Notes: a model not told the origin generated them from the sequence alone. DNA of 64,000 nucleotides from Bacilli bacterium (GCA_049419605.1 JBMSKF010000002.1:26026-90025); one strand, 5' to 3'. Positions 6,408 to 28,266 are shown, counted from the first letter of the stretch. Translations and numbers: made by a program.

Positions 6408-9453
<3,046 letters not shown>

Positions 9454-22024: not shown

Positions 22025-23611
22025 ATGAAAACAAAATTCTATATCACTACTCCGATTTATTATCCTAGTGCAAAATTACACATTGGTCACGCATACTCAA
22101 CTGTGGTGACGGATGTCTTTGCCCGTTATAAACGTCTAGCAGGTGTTCCCACCTATTTTTTAACTGGCACGGATGAACATGGTCAAAAGATTCAAGAAAC
22201 TGCAGAAAAGAATCATAAAACTCCTCAACAATTTGTGGATGATGTTGTGGTCGGTATTAAAGACCTTTGGGCCAAGATGCATATTAGTTACGATGATTTT
22301 ATTCGCACGACAGAACCACGTCACGAAATTGTTGTTCAACAAATCTTTAGTCAATTGTTAAAGCAAGACGATATTTATCTTTCTAAGTACCAAGGCTGGT
22401 ACTGTACATTTTGTGAATCCTTTTGGACGGATACACAAATTGGTGAAGCGAAAGTTTGCCCAGATTGTAAACGAGCCGTTCATCCAGAAGCCGAAGATGC
22501 TTATTTCTTTAGAATGAGTAAGTATGCAGATCGCTTAATGGATTATTATCAAAAAAATCCTTTATTCATTACTCCAGAATCTCGTAAGAACGAAATGATT
22601 AATACGTTTATCAAACCAGGACTTGAAGATCTTTGTGTATCGCGAACCTCTTTTTCTTGGGGTGTTAAAGTAAAAGAAGATCCACGCCATGTGGTGTATG
22701 TTTGGTTAGATGCCCTGACGAATTACATTACCGCACTCGGTTATGGCAGTGCGAATCCATCCTTATATGAAAAGTTTTGGAAAGATCCACAATCCGAAGT
22801 CATTCATATTGTGGGTAGTGATATTACAAGATTCCACGTTATCTATTGGCCCATCTTTTTAATGGCGCTTGGTTTACGTTTACCCGATCGCGTTTTTGCC
22901 CATGGATTATTAATGATGAGAGATGCGAAAATGTCGAAATCTAAAGGAAACGTTATTGACCCTTTACCACTCATGGAAAAATATGGTGTTGATACCGTTC
23001 GTTATTATTTGGTGAGAGAAACTGTATTTGGTGGTGATGGTCAATTTAGTCCAGAGCAATTTGTGGAACGTGTTAACACGGATTTAGCAAATGATTTTGG
23101 TAATTTACTCAATAGAACCATTAACATGGTGAATAAATATTTCCAAGGTGTCGTTCCTGATTACGATGCACCTATTTCAGAATTTGATCGTCAATTGGCT
23201 TCTTTGACGAGTCAAACCATTGAAGATTATCAAACCTTGATGAATCAACTTTTGATTACGGAAGCCTATGCCAAAGTTAACCAATTGGTTGCCCGCGCGA
23301 ATAAGTATATTGACGAAACGCAACCCTGGAACTTAGCCAAAGATCCAAGTAAATTAAAATCTTTGCAAGTCGTGATGCATCAATTGATTTATTCGTTATA
23401 TGTGGCAGGCACGCTATACCAACCTATTTTGGTTACTACCTCGGATGCATTCTTTCTTCAACTTGGTGTAAAAGCAAAACCATCTATTCAATCAGCTTCT
23501 AACCCCAATGTGGTCAATGGATTAAAACTGAATCCACCAACCCCACTATTTCCAAGACTAGACCCTTTAATCGAAGTTCCTTTTATTCAATCCACGATTA
23601 TTAAAAAATAA
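22025..23611 (+). CDS. metG: Methionyl-tRNA synthetase (short form, no C-terminal tRNA-binding domain)
   Basis: The 'HIGH' motif appears as 'KLHIGHAYS' and 'KMSKS' as 'AKMSKSKGN'. A zinc knuckle reads 'CTFCESF...CPDC'. I chose the ATG at 22025. Confidence 0.95.
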   Translation: MKTKFYITTPIYYPSAKLHIGHAYSTVVTDVFARYKRLAGVPTYFLTGTDEHGQKIQETAEKNHKTPQQFVDDVVVGIKDLWAKMHISYDDFIRTTEPRHEIVVQQIFSQLLKQDDIYLSKYQGWYCTFCESFWTDTQIGEAKVCPDCKRAVHPEAEDAYFFRMSKYADRLMDYYQKNPLFITPESRKNEMINTFIKPGLEDLCVSRTSFSWGVKVKEDPRHVVYVWLDALTNYITALGYGSANPSLYEKFWKDPQSEVIHIVGSDITRFHVIYWPIFLMALGLRLPDRVFAHGLLMMRDAKMSKSKGNVIDPLPLMEKYGVDTVRYYLVRETVFGGDGQFSPEQFVERVNTDLANDFGNLLNRTINMVNKYFQGVVPDYDAPISEFDRQLASLTSQTIEDYQTLMNQLLITEAYAKVNQLVARANKYIDETQPWNLAKDPSKLKSLQVVMHQLIYSLYVAGTLYQPILVTTSDAFFLQLGVKAKPSIQSASNPNVVNGLKLNPPTPLFPRLDPLIEVPFIQSTIIKK

Positions 23612-25714
23612 CTAAGATTTGATTTTACTCTCTATATTACTTGTATCGATGATTGGCATCTCAATGGTGCGATTGTTTTTCTCATCAATGGTGTCTACCA
23701 CACTAAATGGTGTGTTTTGAATAATTTGATACAAGTGATCCATCGTGTGGAAGTAAGGATAAATTAAATCTGCATCCGAGAAACTAAATTCCAAGTCGTG
23801 CACTAATTTTTCGTGTAATTCAAATAAACCTTCAAAGGACGTTAAACGTGCATCTTTTTTGAGTTGATGATCCACATAATGCTTTGTCATCACCATTTCT
23901 TCAATGCTCATAGGAATGTAACCTTGGGTCATTTGATTCGCGGTCCAACGCAAGTGTTCTTGGCGAGCAAGCAAGTTACGAATTTTTTTCGCAACCGGTT
24001 TATATCGGTTAAGGTCTGCATCATTCTTGGCGCGGGGATGAACTTGATGGAATCGAGATTGTTCATCTTCATCATATCGTTTCATGAATTTATTTTCTGA
24101 TAAACCCTTGGGTTGTGGTGCTAAATCTAACCCCATTAAATTTAATTTAAAACGAAGACTGATAGCCTCATAGAGTAAGTTTTCTTTTTCTTGCGAAAGC
24201 AATGTATCAAAGGGTTTATTTGGATTGAGAGAAGCGTGTATGTTTTTTGCGATTTGAGTAAACACTGGATTGATAATTTGATTTAACGAATAACCATAAT
24301 CACCAAAACCAAACGCAATCACACTAGGGTGTTTAAATAATTGACTGGTTTGTTGATAGTCTCGATTGAGGATTTGTACAAAGATTTGAAACTTTTGTAA
24401 TCGTTTTTCGATTATCCAACTCAGAACTTGTTGAAGCACTCTGAGATTGGTGACATCGTCATCAAAGGCTACAACGAAGATTTGATAGTCATCATTTTTG
24501 GAAAGACTTGATGACACCACATCTAGATAACGACTATCTTGAAAAGTTGTGTTGATGGTTTTTGTTTCTGCAGAAAGCGGTGGCAATGGTAAATAGTCAC
24601 GTTTTTGGATGGAAGGAACTGCAAAGGTTTTGATCGTGCCACCATTGACTAACGGATCGCGGTATATGTGGTAAGTGATAGGAGGATTTGCATAGTTGGT
24701 AAATTCTTTTCCGAAGAATTTCGACGCTTTGGGTGGGAATTGATTGGTGACAAAGAGATGACGATAAATTTCTTCGTTGGTTTGACCAAATCCTAGTAAA
24801 TGATATTTAATGCTGACGTCTTCCAAAGTCGCTTTTTCAAAGTTAATCATCGTCTTTGGTAAATAAGAAGTTAATGGATACTCAAGAACAAGTTGCTGTG
24901 CAATTAATTGGTGGTAAGAGAAAAATCTAATTTTTTGTTTTTCCTGACTAAAAGATTCGTAAATAGGGAGATGTTGTTTATCTTGATATAACAGATAACT
25001 TTTTAATTTGCTGTTGGGGTTTTGTTGATAATATCGATTGAGCTTTTCCACCAACGCCATCACGTCTGTATCTTTGGTTAATAAACTGACCAGTGTGGTT
25101 TCTTGTTGTTTAGAGCCGATTAACGATTCTAGTTTTTGGCTAGACACATCGAAATTGGTAAAACCAGGTTTAAAAGCATACTTTGTATTGATTTCTTTGT
25201 TTGTTAATAATGCTTTAGGTAACGCCACATTAATGAGTTTTGTGTGGCGGTTTTTCTTAGCTTCCTTTTCAAATGACTTCAAGAGATAAGTTAATTTATC
25301 ATCATCCGCTAAAACTAAATAATGGGGTCGTTGTTGGATGAGAAAGAATCTCATTTTTAAAGCGAGATTATTAAAAAATACTGCAAAAATTAAAATATAT
25401 GTGTAGCCAAATCCGATGACATGGATTGCATAGGCTGACAAAAGAAAGAGTAAGTCGTTATTGATACGATTACTAATTTCAGTGGTACGAAAGATTCCCC
25501 TTAAGATTGCGGTCGTATTACCGAAAGCTTTAAGGACCAAATCCACCGTGTTTAATGTTTCTCCATTTCCAATTAATCCATAAGTGTAAAGGGCAACACC
25601 AAGGACAATCACACCTAAAAAGAAGTGAAATTTATATTTGGCGAGATCAAGATAGATCATCGCACCAATCAACCCCAATGTTCCAATAAATAACAATAAA
25701 GAAATAAAGTCCAT
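23612..25714 (-). CDS. Unknown membrane protein: N-terminal TM bundle, two Rossmann/RCK-like segments and a C-terminal RyR-like helical motif
   Basis: 700 aa from 'MDFISLL'. It has 3-4 N-terminal TM helices. 'LLGFGQTNEEIYRHL' is encoded at about 24769-24797. 'ARQEHLRWTANQMTQGY' is encoded at about 23915-23975. Its start overlaps the stop of the upstream ORF (TAATG). Confidence 0.7.
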   Translation of the reverse strand: MDFISLLLFIGTLGLIGAMIYLDLAKYKFHFFLGVIVLGVALYTYGLIGNGETLNTVDLVLKAFGNTTAILRGIFRTTEISNRINNDLLFLLSAYAIHVIGFGYTYILIFAVFFNNLALKMRFFLIQQRPHYLVLADDDKLTYLLKSFEKEAKKNRHTKLINVALPKALLTNKEINTKYAFKPGFTNFDVSSQKLESLIGSKQQETTLVSLLTKDTDVMALVEKLNRYYQQNPNSKLKSYLLYQDKQHLPIYESFSQEKQKIRFFSYHQLIAQQLVLEYPLTSYLPKTMINFEKATLEDVSIKYHLLGFGQTNEEIYRHLFVTNQFPPKASKFFGKEFTNYANPPITYHIYRDPLVNGGTIKTFAVPSIQKRDYLPLPPLSAETKTINTTFQDSRYLDVVSSSLSKNDDYQIFVVAFDDDVTNLRVLQQVLSWIIEKRLQKFQIFVQILNRDYQQTSQLFKHPSVIAFGFGDYGYSLNQIINPVFTQIAKNIHASLNPNKPFDTLLSQEKENLLYEAISLRFKLNLMGLDLAPQPKGLSENKFMKRYDEDEQSRFHQVHPRAKNDADLNRYKPVAKKIRNLLARQEHLRWTANQMTQGYIPMSIEEMVMTKHYVDHQLKKDARLTSFEGLFELHEKLVHDLEFSFSDADLIYPYFHTMDHLYQIIQNTPFSVVDTIDEKNNRTIEMPIIDTSNIESKIKS

Positions 25715-27021
25715 TATTGAATCCACCCCGCAATTTGGACACCCAAATATATTAATAAACCAGCAACAAGTAGAACCACCAATAACTTCCAGTGCGTAAA
25801 GATCCAACGAACAATCTTATAAATAAAGCCCGTTGCTCCAAAAATAAATTTGATAGGGGTTGCGATGACCTTACCCATGGTTTTAAGTAACATCATTAAA
25901 CGATGCCGAACTCTCGGTAATCTTGCTTTCTTATCTGATTCGTAAACCAAACTTAGAACTGGCACTGCGTAACGATGACCTTTTTCTTGATACGTTAAAT
26001 GATAAATCCTCACTTTGGATAAGGTTGTTTCTTCATAGTCATAATCTGTTCCGTTTGACCTTTGAAGCGTGGCTTGGCTATAGCGATAACCAAATTTAGG
26101 TCCAATAACAAGGACATAAGTAAAGTTATGGGTTTGTTTTTCTTTGAGTTTTACTTGATCATTAATTTTATAAATGGATTGATAACGGTATTGTTTGTAA
26201 GAGAAGAAGTTTTGGATTAAATTCCAATCTGATTTTTCACCCGTTTCAATTTTACGTGGCTCTTTTGCAATGGTTTCTTTTTTTTCTAGAGTAAACGTTT
26301 CCCCGTCTAAAGTAGGATCAACGTCAGTGGTATTGGTGACTTTTTTCGCTTGATAAACATACCGACTTTCTTGATAATTAACCTTCATTTCAACGATATC
26401 TTCAGGAACAAAATATTTTTTTTGTTTTGTGTCAAAAAGGTTAAAGGCAACATAATATAGTTTGGTTGCCTTTGCTTTTAAGGATGAAATATCGCGATAA
26501 AAAAAAGGTCGACCTAATAAATCTTCAACTTTGTTTTGGACTGTCGACATGTCAATTATGTCGTAAAGCAATTCACCTTCTAGTTGGGTTTGAAAATATT
26601 TTTTTGAATCATAATAATACTGATCGTTTAAGATTCCAAAGATATGCTCTTCTTTCACTGTTGATGTGGTTCTTTTTAACACATCATCAATAAATACATA
26701 TTCGGAAATATCAAGCTTACCCGGTTTAAACGGAGCAGGGATAACATATTTATGAACAAAACCTTCCTCGTCTTGTATTTGAACACCATAACGATGTTTA
26801 TTGATCACTATTTCTGTTAAATACTGACCACTTTGAGGTAAATAAAAAAAGATGACCAATTCTTTTTTGTTTTCAAATAAACCTAAGATCGTTGCATGGA
26901 TTAGTGAGGCTTTGGTGTCGCGATATTTTTTTAAATCTAAATTGATTAGCAAAGCATCTTCAATTAAAGGAGAGTAACGATCCAATTTAAATTTGTTGAG
27001 AAGGATAGTTTCGTCTTTCAT
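25714..27021 (-). CDS. Unknown tail-anchored protein (soluble ~370 aa plus a C-terminal TM helix)
   Basis: 435 aa ending in 'WKLLVVLLVAGLLIYLGVQIAGW'. I recognise no family. TATAAT lies 6 nt upstream of the ATG and there is no Shine-Dalgarno. Confidence 0.65.
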   Translation of the reverse strand: MKDETILLNKFKLDRYSPLIEDALLINLDLKKYRDTKASLIHATILGLFENKKELVIFFYLPQSGQYLTEIVINKHRYGVQIQDEEGFVHKYVIPAPFKPGKLDISEYVFIDDVLKRTTSTVKEEHIFGILNDQYYYDSKKYFQTQLEGELLYDIIDMSTVQNKVEDLLGRPFFYRDISSLKAKATKLYYVAFNLFDTKQKKYFVPEDIVEMKVNYQESRYVYQAKKVTNTTDVDPTLDGETFTLEKKETIAKEPRKIETGEKSDWNLIQNFFSYKQYRYQSIYKINDQVKLKEKQTHNFTYVLVIGPKFGYRYSQATLQRSNGTDYDYEETTLSKVRIYHLTYQEKGHRYAVPVLSLVYESDKKARLPRVRHRLMMLLKTMGKVIATPIKFIFGATGFIYKIVRWIFTHWKLLVVLLVAGLLIYLGVQIAGWIQ

Positions 27022-27118
27022 GCTTTTATTATACTCGATTCAATCTTGCAAAAATTCTTAATTATTGACAATTTAATTAAAAAAATAGACTACTCGTTAT
27101 AATGAATAAGAGGTGTTT

Positions 27119-27850
27119 ATGAAACTATATCAACATTCAAAAAACTTTATTGAGATTGCTTGGCAAGACCAACAACCAAGGCCATTCTTGCTTATTCTTC
27201 CTGGTGGTGGATATGAATACACCTCCTGGCGAGAAGCCCAACCCGTTGTAAATGCTTTTGCTAGCGAATCCTATCACACCGGAATCTATTATTACCGAGA
27301 AGAAAAACTCCTTCACCCACACACCCACATTGAAGCAAAAGAATTGATTGAACAATTAAGAAAAGATCCCCGAGTCAATAAAATTTATCTTGTTGGTTTT
27401 TCTGCAGGTGGACACTTTGCTGCAACCATCATGACTTATTATCCACACTTGGTGAATGCTGGGGTGCTAGCCTATGCGCCCATTACCTCCGACATTAAAT
27501 ACCGACATCTAGGATCTTTAATGAATTTATTGGGACCCGATATTACTAAAGAAAAAGCCGCTGAGGTTTCTTTAGATTTACACGTGACAAAGGAAACCCC
27601 ACCATGTTTTATTTTTCACACACAAGATGATGCGATAGTCCATGTTGAAAATGCTCTGATGTTTGCGGAAGCACTTAGAAAGAACAAAGTTCCGTTCGCC
27701 CTTCATGTTTACCCAGAAGGTTTACACGGCTTCTCAGTAGGAAGTGACGATGTTGCTTATAGCGAATACTCATTAGAAGAATTCCAGCAACGATTTGCTT
27801 ACATGAAAGAATGGGTTGAACTCGCAAAGAAGTTTTTACGTAGATATTAG
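27119..27850 (+). CDS. Alpha/beta hydrolase (esterase/lipase-type)
   Basis: Nucleophile elbow 'GFSAGGH', a late 'DD' and 'H' ('HTQDDAIV', 'EGLHGF'). I chose the ATG at 27119, which follows an AAGAGG Shine-Dalgarno. Confidence 0.8.
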   Translation: MKLYQHSKNFIEIAWQDQQPRPFLLILPGGGYEYTSWREAQPVVNAFASESYHTGIYYYREEKLLHPHTHIEAKELIEQLRKDPRVNKIYLVGFSAGGHFAATIMTYYPHLVNAGVLAYAPITSDIKYRHLGSLMNLLGPDITKEKAAEVSLDLHVTKETPPCFIFHTQDDAIVHVENALMFAEALRKNKVPFALHVYPEGLHGFSVGSDDVAYSEYSLEEFQQRFAYMKEWVELAKKFLRRY

Positions 27851-28266
27851 TCCTTAAACTTCACGCCGTTCGCATCACGATTGATCTCACCAGTGAAAAT
27901 TTGAATACCTTCAATAAAAGCCCATAACCAAGAAATAATCGGTCCGATAAACAAGATAGAACCCACCGTACTTAAAATTAACTGAATAATGCCGCGTTGT
28001 GTGTATCCTAAATAAAAATTATGTATACCTAACCCACCAACAAAGATAGCAAGCAAACCTGCAACTAGTTTTGATTTCGGTTCTTGCATCGGGTTTGGAT
28101 TAGGATTACTTTCAGTCGATTGTTGACGTTTAACATCCTTTTCATCCATCACTTCTGGTTGAATTGGTTTTTCTTTGTTTTGAAATGGATTGTTCATGTC
28201 CGCGCCACACCAACCACAAAACTTGGTTTTATCTTGGGTTTCTCTACCACATTTTGGACATTTCAT
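27847..28266 (-). CDS. Zinc-ribbon / TM2-domain membrane protein
   Basis: N-terminal 'CPKCG...CGWCG' and a C-terminal TM2 domain 'LLAIFVGGLGIHNFYLGYTQRGIIQLIL'. Confidence 0.8.
   Translation of the reverse strand: MKCPKCGRETQDKTKFCGWCGADMNNPFQNKEKPIQPEVMDEKDVKRQQSTESNPNPNPMQEPKSKLVAGLLAIFVGGLGIHNFYLGYTQRGIIQLILSTVGSILFIGPIISWLWAFIEGIQIFTGEINRDANGVKFKD

What the first reader, a model, noticed from the sequence alone, without database searches (positions are those of the whole stretch)
23612..27021. Translationally coupled pair of unknown membrane proteins (tail-anchored 435 aa plus 700 aa TM/Rossmann-like/RyR-like)
The stop of 25714-27021 and the start of 23612-25714 share one nucleotide (TAATG at 25712-25716). 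The first protein is soluble with a single C-terminal TM helix and matches nothing I recognise. The second has 3-4 N-terminal TM helices followed by two alpha/beta segments. One of these carries a glycine-rich turn, 'LLGFGQTNEEIYRHL', that is TrkA-N/RCK-like. A C-terminal 'ARQEHLRWTANQMTQGY...KKDARLTSFEGL' resembles the bacterial RyR-domain signature (xEHxxW...GW/Y). The pair has a TATAAT 6 nt before its ATG and no Shine-Dalgarno. It abuts the metG stop with zero spacing. By eye it is much more AT-rich than the core genes: hand counts give 15/60 G+C for 26401-26460 versus 28/60 for 7801-7860 in gyrB. That is two lines only, not a statistic. It could be a ligand-gated channel or regulator, or an accessory or defence-type module.
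Basis: partly seen in the sequence, partly recalled or inferred. Interest (0 to 1): 0.6.

Follow-up and report, generated by a model that had tools for sequence, protein, structure and literature searches.

The report
Coupled membrane pair: RCK/RyR-like protein plus orphan
Two overlapping genes kept by one genus of tiny, apparently wall-less freshwater bacteria encode a channel-like membrane protein with a degenerate ryanodine-receptor-type nucleotide-sensing domain and a membrane-anchored partner with no relatives elsewhere; distant relatives of the first gene often sit beside immune-signalling (TIR) genes.

Summary
Genes A (25714-27021, 435 aa) and B (23612-25714, 700 aa) share one base (TAATG). 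Both are intact, under strong purifying selection, and adjacent in 16 of 17 other genomes of the genus, always beside metG. Their base composition is ordinary, so they are not a foreign island.

B matches no Pfam, NCBIfam or PADLOC model. A profile search nevertheless places it in a large unannotated family (651 clusters) of about 700-aa proteins. The predicted architecture is three N-terminal membrane helices, two Rossmann-like domains whose model matches the tandem-RCK gating rings of CASTOR/DMI1/Slo channels, and a C-terminal divergent RyR (Repeat12-type) domain (hhalign probability 85-97%).

In this genus the RyR pocket is remodelled: the family's near-invariant His621 is Asp and Asp654 is aromatic. 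TIR genes are absent.

A is a beta-rich, tail-anchored protein found only in this genus, with no confident fold match.

Most likely the pair forms a lineage-specific regulated membrane complex, possibly a channel. That function is inferred, not shown.

Distant B homologues in gut Bacillota have a TIR gene within 6 kb in 13 of 80 loci and a TraG gene in 11 of 80. This hints that the wider family senses TIR-made signals.

The parts
27028..27033 (-). TATAAT box 6 nt upstream of the ATG of gene A. This is the arrangement expected for a leaderless mRNA.
   Evidence: Sequence read. AGTATAAT-N6-ATG is conserved in 14 of 16 loci of the genus.
25714..27021 (-). Gene A: a 435-aa beta-rich cytoplasmic protein anchored by a C-terminal membrane helix, found only in this genus.
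   Evidence: ORF. About 77 homologues at 40-98% identity, then a sharp cut-off with nothing more distant. Found in 16 of 17 other genus genomes and in none of 200 other genomes of the order. AF2 model pLDDT 81. No PDB fold match. dN/dS about 0.02-0.1.
25720..25791 (-). C-terminal membrane anchor of A (residues 411-434), preceded by a long basic amphipathic helix (371-409).
   Evidence: Hydropathy peak of 2.65 at residues 413-431. Helices 371-409 and 411-434 in the model. W411 is invariant and K412 nearly so.
25712..25716 (-). TAATG stop/start overlap between A and B.
   Evidence: An overlap of 1, 4 or 10 nt is kept in 14 of the 16 loci examined.
23612..25714 (-). Gene B: a 700-aa membrane protein, a divergent member of an unannotated family built as 3 TM helices, two Rossmann-like domains and an RyR-like domain.
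   Evidence: A profile search finds 651 clusters with E<=1e-3. hhalign of the genus profile against the main family profile gives probability 100% and E 7e-57 over 658 columns. dN/dS about 0.04.
25337..25714 (-). Membrane domain of B (residues 1-126): TM1, TM2, a short external helix, and a long TM3 that runs straight into the first Rossmann strand.
   Evidence: Residues 55-123 are the best-conserved stretch of the protein in the genus (mean column conservation 0.85; 30 of 69 positions invariant). There is no TVGYG-type filter.
24815..25336 (-). Rossmann-like domain 1 (residues 127-300).
   Evidence: Alternating beta-alpha pattern in the model. hhalign against domain 2 gives probability 68% and E 5e-5. 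hhalign against TrkA_N gives probability 30% and E 5e-4.
24215..24814 (-). Rossmann-like domain 2 (residues 301-500), with the Gly-rich loop GFGQTN (nt 24776-24793) and an acidic residue at the end of strand 2.
   Evidence: In the wide family G308 is present in 124/124, F309 in 117/124, G310 in 117/124 and N313 in 100/124 sequences. Asp at the end of strand 2 is present in 100/124 of the wide family, and Asp or Glu in 23/27 of the genus.
23720..23983 (-). Divergent RyR (Repeat12-type) domain core (residues 578-665), including EHLRW at nt 23945-23959.
   Evidence: hhalign of the family's C-terminal domain against RyR-domain alignments gives probability 85-97% and E 6e-6 to 3e-11. One target set is a Pfam-confirmed RyR domain (E 2e-10). 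Pfam RyR itself does not hit B.

Best explanation
A and B form a two-gene operon, probably read from a leaderless mRNA and translated as a coupled pair. As a pair it is confined to one genus of small-genome (about 1 Mb), apparently wall-less freshwater Bacilli.

B is a diverged member of a large unannotated protein family. It has three membrane helices. The third helix continues directly into two Rossmann-like domains arranged like the tandem-RCK gating ring of CASTOR/DMI1/Slo channels. A C-terminal RyR (Repeat12-type) domain follows. In phage proteins and animal RyRs, that domain type binds adenine or ADP-ribose nucleotides.

The most likely mechanism is as follows. B oligomerises in the membrane, by analogy as a tetramer. 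Its cytoplasmic ring couples binding of a small ligand to a change in the membrane domain, most plausibly opening an ion path lined by the highly conserved TM3. Rossmann domain 2 still carries a Gly-rich loop and an acidic residue at the end of strand 2, so it is the likeliest ligand site.

A sits on the same (cytoplasmic) face of the membrane, held by its tail anchor. It would serve as a lineage-specific accessory or input subunit.

In this genus the ancestral RyR nucleotide pocket has been remodelled. It probably no longer reads the ancestral ligand.

Shown here: gene structure, coupling, co-conservation, purifying selection, family membership and domain architecture. Inferred: oligomeric state, pore, ligand and the A-B contact.
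For: - Coupling and a conserved promoter-at-start arrangement.
- A and B are both present in 16 of 17 other genus genomes. The one genome lacking them is only 70% complete.
- Synteny with metG/rpmE is kept at 42-46% identity.
- dN/dS is about 0.04 for both genes. Codon usage is ordinary.
- The AF2 model of B has pLDDT 80.8 and pTM 0.76.
- In the Foldseek PDB search, the six best hits are CASTOR/DMI1 gating rings (E 1.6e-7 to 2.3e-6, probability 1.0). Next come Slo1/Slo2.2/Slo3 channels, aligned over 650-820 columns.
- The two Rossmann-like domains are related to each other (hhalign probability 68%, E 5e-5).
- The Gly-rich loop and the acidic residue at the end of strand 2 are conserved.
- The TM3 region is the most conserved part of B within the genus.
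- RyR-domain homology by hhalign. A paralogue family with the same Rossmann2-RyR order matches at probability 98% and E 8e-14.
- RyR domains bind gcADPR, ADPR or ATP through His-x-x-Trp, a second His and an Asp (PMC13232231, PMC13251945).
- A is tail-anchored with no signal peptide. Its basic juxtamembrane helix places its body in the cytoplasm, alongside B's ring.
Against: - B has no K+ channel signature. The membrane helices are poorly conserved across the wide family, so they may be only an anchor.
- Pfam TrkA_N, Ion_trans_2 and RyR do not hit B.
- hhalign against TrkA_N is weak (probability 30-44%).
- Foldseek TM-scores are modest (0.3-0.44). I could not inspect the superposition.
- The RyR pocket residues His621 and Asp654 are replaced in all 27 genus sequences. 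His587 and Trp590 decay in deep-branching species.
- No experiment or complex model supports an A-B contact.
- A's model quality varies between the five runs (pLDDT 64-81).
Confidence: 0.45

Rival explanations
1. The pair is an anti-virus (abortive-infection type) module. B would be the membrane effector, descended from TIR-signal-sensing relatives. A would be a lineage-specific sensor, possibly of virus origin.
For: - Distant B homologues have a Pfam-confirmed TIR gene within 6 kb in 13 of 80 loci, directly adjacent on the same strand in about six.
- TIR adjacency is scattered over the family tree, needing 11 changes for 13 loci.
- 11 of 80 loci lie beside a TraG/VirD4 gene.
- The family is patchy within the window's own order (20 of 200 genomes).
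- RyR domains bind TIR-made gcADPR (PMC13232231, PMC13251945).
- A's only fold lead is ORF1 of Acholeplasma phage L2, a virus of wall-less hosts (E 1.7e-4).
Against: - No TIR gene was found in this genome or in 16 of the 17 other genus genomes.
- No PADLOC model hits A or B.
- The pair is near-universal in the genus, at a fixed site between housekeeping genes, with ordinary composition and strong purifying selection. Defence genes are usually patchy and sit in variable islands.
- The signal-binding residues are lost.
- The L2 match has a TM-score of 0.24 and no sequence support.
Confidence: 0.2
2. B is not a channel. It would be a membrane-tethered nucleotide-binding sensor or enzyme, for example a glycosidase-type RyR domain as in phage RyDEP or a Rossmann-based activity. 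A would be its adaptor or substrate.
For: - The membrane helices are weakly conserved across the family and lack a pore signature.
- RyDEP shows that an RyR domain can be catalytic, using a His/Asp dyad (PMC13232231). The window protein keeps His587 and Trp590.
- Rossmann domain 2 has dinucleotide-binding hallmarks.
Against: - Fold matches are specifically to channel gating rings, not to enzymes.
- Within the genus, TM3 is the most conserved segment. A mere anchor would not be expected to behave this way.
- His587 is Gln in 5 of 27 genus sequences, and the family's Asp654 is lost. This argues against conserved catalysis.
Confidence: 0.2
3. The pair is recently acquired foreign DNA (a mobile island), as the AT-richness suggested.
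For: Gene A's G+C content is at the 5th percentile of long ORFs. Relatives of B travel on conjugative elements elsewhere.
Against: - GC3 and codon usage are typical.
- The neighbours are the same across the whole genus, down to 42% protein identity.
- The genus forms a single clade on a long stem in the family tree.
- No integrase, repeats or tRNA were seen flanking the pair among the ORFs of the region.
Confidence: 0.03

Closest known systems
CASTOR/POLLUX/DMI1 and Slo (BK, Slo2.2, Slo3) cation channels, whose pore is followed by a tandem RCK1-RCK2 gating ring
   Same: A membrane helix runs directly into two consecutive Rossmann-type domains. These are the best Foldseek matches (E 1.6e-7 to 1e-3, probability 1.0). 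The two domains are related to each other.
   Different: B has no pore helix or selectivity-filter signature, and no Pfam Ion_trans_2, TrkA_N or Castor_Poll_mid hit. It has only three membrane helices. It carries an extra C-terminal RyR-like domain. Identity to these channels is 8-12%.
RyR / Repeat12 domain (Pfam PF02026), including the phage proteins RyDEP and RyR Tad that cleave or sequester gcADPR
   Same: The motif order is shared: E-H-x-R-W, then G-[WFY], then K..H.x[LI]..[FY].xL, then an acidic helix. hhalign gives probability 85-97%. The wide family keeps the His-x-x-Trp pair and the second His almost invariantly. These are the residues the preprints identify as ligand contacts (PMC13232231, PMC13251945).
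   Different: B scores below Pfam's threshold. It has an insertion of about 10-15 residues between the second His and the acidic motif. The domain is fused to a membrane/Rossmann body rather than standing alone. In the window's genus His621 is Asp and Asp654 is aromatic.
Thoeris-type TIR signalling defence systems (a TIR synthase plus a signal-sensing effector, some of them membrane proteins)
   Same: In 13 of 80 loci, distant B homologues have a TIR gene within 6 kb. Their RyR-like domain belongs to a fold shown to bind TIR products.
   Different: No known Thoeris effector model matches (PADLOC). I know of no described Thoeris type with an RyR sensor, and the two preprints found describe only phage RyR proteins. 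The window's genome has no TIR gene.
KtrA/TrkA cytoplasmic RCK regulators
   Same: The fold type is Rossmann/RCK. The genome has its own canonical TrkA_N protein elsewhere (contig C4, 96 bits).
   Different: B is membrane-integral and is not detected by the TrkA_N model. No KtrB/TrkH-type partner lies adjacent.
ORF1 (591 aa) of Acholeplasma phage L2, of unknown function
   Same: It is the only fold match for A with E<1e-3 (BFVD, E 1.7e-4, probability 1.0). Both proteins are beta-rich with C-terminal hydrophobic helices. The phage's host is wall-less, as this organism seems to be.
   Different: TM-score is only 0.24/0.18. hhalign finds nothing beyond the membrane helix (probability 0.4%). tblastn of A against 50,697 phage records finds nothing.

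Membership tests
RCK / TrkA_N domain (PF02254) | Match to the Pfam TrkA_N model above the gathering score | tested here: not met
   No Pfam hit for B at E<=1. The whole-genome scan with PF02254 finds other loci but not B. One of 66 family members reaches E 0.006, below the cut-off.
RCK / TrkA_N domain (PF02254) | Profile-profile similarity to genuine TrkA_N sequences | tested here: inconclusive
   hhalign of domain 1 gives probability 30% and E 5e-4, with strands 1, 2 and 4 in register. Domain 2 gives probability 44% and E 2e-4. The control (C-terminal domain) gives E 0.31.
RCK / TrkA_N domain (PF02254) | Tandem Rossmann folds arranged like a gating ring; Gly-rich loop after strand 1; acidic residue at the end of strand 2 | tested here: met
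   Foldseek hits to CASTOR/DMI1/Slo rings. GFGxxN and the strand-2 Asp are conserved in domain 2.
Tetrameric cation channel pore (2TM/P, Ion_trans_2) | Pore helix plus a selectivity-filter motif (T-x-G-Y/F-G or a relative) between two membrane helices | tested here: not met
   No Pfam Ion_trans_2 hit. GFGYTY in TM3 is genus-specific, modelled as helix, and absent from the wide family.
Tetrameric cation channel pore (2TM/P, Ion_trans_2) | Tetramer with a central conduction path | not testable with these tools
RyR / Repeat12 domain (PF02026) | Match to the Pfam RyR model above the gathering score | tested here: not met
   No hit for B. One of 66 family members reaches E 0.049. A profile search of PDB sequences finds no RyR entry.
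RyR / Repeat12 domain (PF02026) | Profile-profile homology to confirmed RyR domains | tested here: met
   hhalign gives probability 85% (E 6e-6) against a set whose member scores Pfam RyR E 2e-10. It gives probability 97% (E 3e-11 and 6e-11) against the paralogue set and the combined set.
RyR / Repeat12 domain (PF02026) | Ligand-contact residues: His-x-x-Trp, a second His, and Asp (as in RyDEP H75/W78/H100/D117 and RyR Tad H129/W132/H154/D171) | tested here: inconclusive
   The wide family has H587 in 118/124, W590 in 123/124, H621 in 121/124 and D654 in 121/124 sequences. The window protein keeps H587 and W590 but has D621 and Y654. The genus has D621 in 27/27, and H587 and W590 are variable. 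Which Asp is equivalent is uncertain because of an insertion.
Thoeris-like TIR signalling system | A TIR-domain gene in the same locus or genome | tested here: not met
   PF13676 was not found in G000 or in 16 of the 17 other genus genomes. It is met only for distant homologues, in 13 of 80 loci.
Known anti-phage defence systems (PADLOC-DB) | Match to any defence-protein model | tested here: not met
   No family at E<=1 for A or B. None for a mainstream B homologue either.
Tail-anchored membrane protein | A single membrane helix within about 30 residues of the C-terminus and no N-terminal signal sequence | tested here: met
   The only hydrophobic segment of A is at residues 413-431 of 435. The model shows helix 411-434. 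The N-terminus is hydrophilic.

The most novel reading that the evidence does not exclude
The unannotated family (3 TM helices, two Rossmann-like domains, RyR-like domain) would be a new class of cellular RyR-domain receptor. Its members would read TIR-made ADP-ribose signals and act on the membrane, making a new Thoeris-like defence type carried on conjugative elements in gut Bacillota. The window's pair would be a domesticated descendant. On this reading, the genus lost the TIR partner, rebuilt the nucleotide pocket and recruited a brand-new tail-anchored protein (A) as its input. That would make it a bacterial parallel to the RyR Repeat12 domain sitting on an ion channel.
Probability: 0.15. 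Interest if true: 0.8.

Novelty: new variant of a known kind. Interest (0 to 1): 0.55.

Why it matters
Three things would matter if this holds.

First, a family of several hundred clusters joins a channel-type gating ring to an RyR Repeat12-type domain, and it has no Pfam, NCBIfam or PADLOC model. Two 2026 preprints showed that phage RyR domains bind or cleave TIR-made gcADPR. A cellular, membrane-bound RyR-domain family that repeatedly neighbours TIR genes would be the matching receptor side of that story. It would also be a prokaryotic example of an RyR domain attached to a channel-like body.

Second, the window's genus shows what happens when such a module becomes a fixed chromosomal gene. 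The ligand pocket decays, and a gene with no relatives elsewhere becomes its obligate, translationally coupled partner.

Third, for a wall-less bacterium with a 1 Mb genome living in fresh water, two large conserved membrane genes are likely to be physiologically important. Ion or osmotic homeostasis is an obvious candidate, though this is only an inference.

Tried and rejected
- Pfam, NCBIfam, PADLOC and PHROGs scans of A and B gave nothing usable. The only hits were four sub-threshold PHROG matches of unknown function for A.
- Profile searches of PDB sequences with the A, B and RyR-like-domain alignments gave only chance-level hits.
- A Pfam scan of 66 distant B homologues found no recurrent domain. 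A first attempt with 126 sequences exceeded the size limit.
- A search for PF02026 (RyR) in 249 genomes of the phylum, meant to supply comparison sequences, found none. I used neighbour genes with Pfam-confirmed RyR domains instead.
- The search for related loci with a 47-sequence alignment failed because no stretch was conserved enough. It succeeded with a tighter 14-sequence alignment.
- The A profile found no relative next to 80 distant B homologues, in 200 genomes of the order, or in the 5.8-billion-protein set.
- tblastn of A against the phage records found no match.
- hhalign of A against phage L2 ORF1 showed no homology beyond the membrane helix, so I treat the BFVD fold hit as a lead only.
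- An Rfam scan of 23000-27600 found nothing.
- The promoter scan did not list the TATAAT upstream of A because no -35 box fits.
- Reading GFGYTY in TM3 as a K+-type filter was rejected. It is modelled as helix and is absent from the wide family.


Full report
OBSERVATION

On the minus strand, an ORF of 435 aa (gene A, 25714-27021) is followed by one of 700 aa (gene B, 23612-25714). The junction reads caaTAATGgac, so the stop of A and the start of B share base 25714. The ORF listing extends B to a TTG 31 codons upstream. All 27 aligned homologues nevertheless start at the ATG, so 700 aa is the real product.

Upstream of A lies TATAAT (27033-27028), then six bases, then the ATG, with no Shine-Dalgarno sequence. 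metG ends at 23611 and B ends at 23612, so the two genes converge with zero spacing. No Rfam family matches the region.

COMPOSITION

The genome is 37.2% G+C. Long ORFs average 37.4 +/- 2.5%. A is 33.3% (5th percentile) and B is 35.5% (20th percentile). Third-position G+C (36th and 85th percentile) and codon-usage distance (66th and 71st percentile among ORFs of similar length) are ordinary. A's low G+C therefore reflects its Lys/Asn/Tyr/Ile-rich protein, not foreign origin.

CONSERVATION OF THE PAIR

Each protein has about 70-77 close relatives (40-100% identity), all hypothetical proteins from lake metagenomes or 'Bacillota bacterium' MAGs.
- In the genome collection, B is found in 16 of 17 other genomes of the same genus and in none of 24 genomes of other genera when searched as a single sequence.
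- A is found in the same 16 of 17 genomes. The genome lacking both is 70% complete.
- The A profile finds nothing in 200 other genomes of the order. It finds nothing further in 5.8 billion proteins: scores fall from 451 bits straight to nothing.
- In relatives as distant as 42-46% identity, the pair still lies beside metG and rpmE, with the same hydrolase and tRNA-methyltransferase genes nearby.
- The stop/start overlap is kept in 14 of the 16 loci examined, as 1, 4 or 10 nt. Two loci have a 3-nt gap.
- AGTATAAT-N6-ATG before A is kept in 14 of 16 loci. The two deepest-branching loci have a normal GAGGGG or AAGGGA leader.
- About 40 of 815 long ORFs in this genome share the TATAAT-N5-7-ATG pattern, so leaderless-type starts are a minority class here and not unique to A.
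- dN/dS is about 0.04 for B and 0.02-0.1 for A. Synonymous sites are near saturation, so these values are rough.

Together these results show a vertically inherited, selected, co-translated pair, not a mobile island.

WHAT B IS

Pfam, NCBIfam, PADLOC and PHROGs give nothing for B. An exhaustive profile search of 1.84 billion representative proteins found 651 proteins with E<=1e-3, of which 147 have E<=1e-30. Most are 650-750 aa and match end to end. The genus profile aligns with the mainstream family profile over 658 columns (hhalign probability 100%, E 7e-57). These relatives have no Pfam coverage either.

The AF2 model (pLDDT 80.8, pTM 0.76) shows the following layout:
- helices 3-21 and 28-48, a short helix 56-71, and a long helix 88-126 that runs into strand 131-136;
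- two alternating beta/alpha domains, at about residues 127-300 and 301-500;
- a helical C-terminal domain, residues 507-676.

By charge distribution the N-terminus is outside and everything after TM3 is cytoplasmic. This is an inference from the positive-inside rule.

Foldseek against the PDB returns the CASTOR and DMI1 gating rings as its six best hits (E 1.6e-7 to 2.3e-6, probability 1.0, TM-score 0.42-0.44 on the target). Then come Slo2.2, Slo1 and Slo3, many aligned over 650-820 columns. The two Rossmann-like domains resemble each other (hhalign probability 68%, E 5e-5). They resemble genuine TrkA_N sequences only weakly (probability 30-44%), against a control of E 0.31.

In the wide family G308 is invariant and F309, G310 and N313 are nearly so. 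The acidic residue at the end of strand 2 is also kept. That combination is the classical dinucleotide-binding pattern, which I take from established knowledge of Rossmann folds.

B has no K+ filter. GFGYTY in TM3 is specific to the genus, modelled as helix, and missing from the wide family. Within the genus, however, residues 55-123 (the loop plus TM3) are the most conserved part of the protein: 30 of 69 positions are invariant.

THE RyR-LIKE DOMAIN

The wide-family consensus at the C-terminus reads LAxQEHxRWNAY..G..P...K....R.H.NLTTFEGL...DVIxYDYQxMD. Pfam RyR does not reach threshold on any family member. It does hit genes that neighbour distant B homologues:
- a protein of about 790 aa at E 2e-10, above the cut-off;
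- a paralogue group of 790-1040 aa with three N-terminal membrane helices, at E 5e-5 to 3e-4.

hhalign of the B-family C-terminal alignment against these RyR domains gives probability 85% (E 6e-6) and 97% (E 3e-11 and 6e-11) over the EHxRW...H.cL.pY.xL core. The 3TM paralogue group aligns with the family from Rossmann domain 2 through the RyR core (probability 98%, E 8e-14). I conclude that B ends in a divergent RyR/Repeat12 domain.

Two 2026 preprints show what this fold does. Phage RyDEP cleaves 2'/3'cADPR using H75/D117, with W78 stacking on adenine and H100 on the phosphates. Phage RyR Tad sequesters gcADPR through H129/W132, H154 and K170/D171. The same residues bind ATP and dantrolene in human RyR3 (PMC13232231; PMC13251945).

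In the B family the corresponding positions are almost invariant: H587 in 118/124, W590 in 123/124, H621 in 121/124 and D654 in 121/124 sequences. In the window's genus, H621 is Asp in 27/27 and D654 is Phe, Tyr or Leu. H587 becomes Gln and W590 becomes Phe, Gln or Arg in the deeper species. The pocket has therefore been rebuilt or abandoned in this lineage, although the window protein itself keeps H587 and W590.

CONTEXT OF THE WIDE FAMILY

A scan of one genome per species found at least 266 species with a mainstream homologue. Most are uncultured gut Clostridia and Christensenellales, plus some 'Bacilli' MAGs. In the window's own order the family is patchy: 20 of 200 other genomes and 14 of 52 genera.

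None of the 80 best loci has an A-like gene, and the neighbours vary. Three themes recur:
- a 306-aa gene plus a TraG/VirD4 coupling-protein gene next to B in 11 loci, often with the 3TM-RyR paralogue on the other side;
- tandem copies of the family;
- TIR-domain genes, all above Pfam's TIR_2 cut-off, within 6 kb in 13 loci and abutting B on the same strand in about six, for example L071, L078 and L081.

On a FastTree of 106 family members the TIR-neighbour label is scattered, needing 11 changes for 13 loci. The association therefore does not come from one clade. The genus forms a single clade with 100% support on a long stem.

No TIR gene was found in this genome or in 16 of the 17 other genus genomes.

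WHAT A IS

The AF2 model (pLDDT 81.3 for the best of five models, range 64-81) shows the following:
- a short helical N-terminus;
- a beta-rich body with strands up to 23 residues long (residues 44-361);
- a basic helix, 371-409;
- a membrane helix, 411-434.

There is no signal peptide, so the body should be cytoplasmic and lie on the same side as B's ring.

No PDB chain matches (best E 6.5e-3, probability 0.25, TM-score 0.12). In BFVD one hit stands out: ORF1 (591 aa) of Acholeplasma phage L2, with E 1.7e-4, probability 1.0 and TM-score 0.24. hhalign shows no sequence relationship beyond the membrane helix, and tblastn against phage genomes finds nothing. I keep this as an unconfirmed lead.

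The lead gains some colour from the organism itself. At 92.6% completeness, the genome has no penicillin-binding transpeptidase and only one Mur-ligase-type hit, so the cell looks wall-less, like the hosts of L2.

INTERPRETATION

The best-supported reading (about 45%) is a lineage-specific membrane complex. B would be a channel-like or signalling protein whose cytoplasmic RCK-type ring regulates its membrane domain. A would be a tail-anchored accessory subunit made in fixed proportion through translational coupling.

Rival readings:
- a defence module descended from TIR-linked relatives (about 20%);
- a membrane-tethered sensor or enzyme without a pore (about 20%);
- recent foreign DNA (about 3%).

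The most novel reading not excluded is that the wide family is the cellular, membrane-bound RyR-domain receptor for TIR signals, and that this genus domesticated it.

LIMITS

- I could not inspect the model coordinates.
- The 80 loci are the best-scoring subset of at least 266.
- MAG binning may mislabel some hosts.

Noticed in passing
whole genome G000 (window = contig C2:26026-90025): The organism looks wall-less. No PF00905 transpeptidase was found, and the only Mur_ligase_M hit is a single 414-aa ORF, probably FolC, at 92.6% completeness. A wall-less cell with a 1 Mb genome in fresh water would face osmotic problems.
   Followed up: partly
L071:212-3381, L078:5989-9489, L081:5986-9146, L069:4727-8229, L040:1253-4754, L086:210-5947 (gut Bacillota MAG loci): Distant homologues of gene B abut Pfam-confirmed TIR-domain genes. 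In all, 13 of 80 loci have a TIR gene within 6 kb. RyR domains were recently shown to bind TIR-made gcADPR, so this may be an undescribed Thoeris-like system.
   Followed up: partly
L011, L012, L016, L017, L019, L020, L025, L033, L038, L041, L067: In 11 of 80 loci the B homologue lies beside a 306-aa gene and a TraG/VirD4-type coupling-protein gene. In five of them a 790-970-aa paralogue with three membrane helices and a C-terminal near-threshold RyR domain directly follows B. This looks like cargo of conjugative elements.
   Followed up: partly
L052:3585-5969, L054:5038-7302, L061:3601-5934, L066:6037-8106: A second neighbour family of about 690-790 aa has no membrane helix. It carries a Pfam-confirmed RyR domain near residues 500-600 and is otherwise unannotated.
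   Followed up: no
window 27021-27033 and genome-wide: About 40 of 815 long ORFs in this genome have TATAAT 5-7 nt before an in-frame ATG, against 386 with a Shine-Dalgarno-like motif. Leaderless-type starts may be a regular minority class in this lineage. Within the genus, gene A switched from a Shine-Dalgarno leader (two deep-branching species) to the leaderless pattern.
   Followed up: partly
window 23656-23714 (+ strand): Two terminator-like hairpins for the plus strand lie inside the 3' end of gene B, just past the metG stop. With zero spacing between the convergent genes, metG's terminator would have to be embedded in B's coding sequence.
   Followed up: no
G000 contig C4:47323-47670: The genome has its own canonical KtrA/TrkA-type RCK protein (TrkA_N, 96 bits, 248-aa frame). 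B is therefore an addition to the standard K+ uptake regulator, not a replacement for it.
   Followed up: no
window 27847-28266 (-): A 139-aa protein with an N-terminal zinc-ribbon-like CxxC...CxxC motif, a Pro/Asn-rich linker and C-terminal membrane helices sits two genes upstream of A on the same strand. It was not examined.
   Followed up: no
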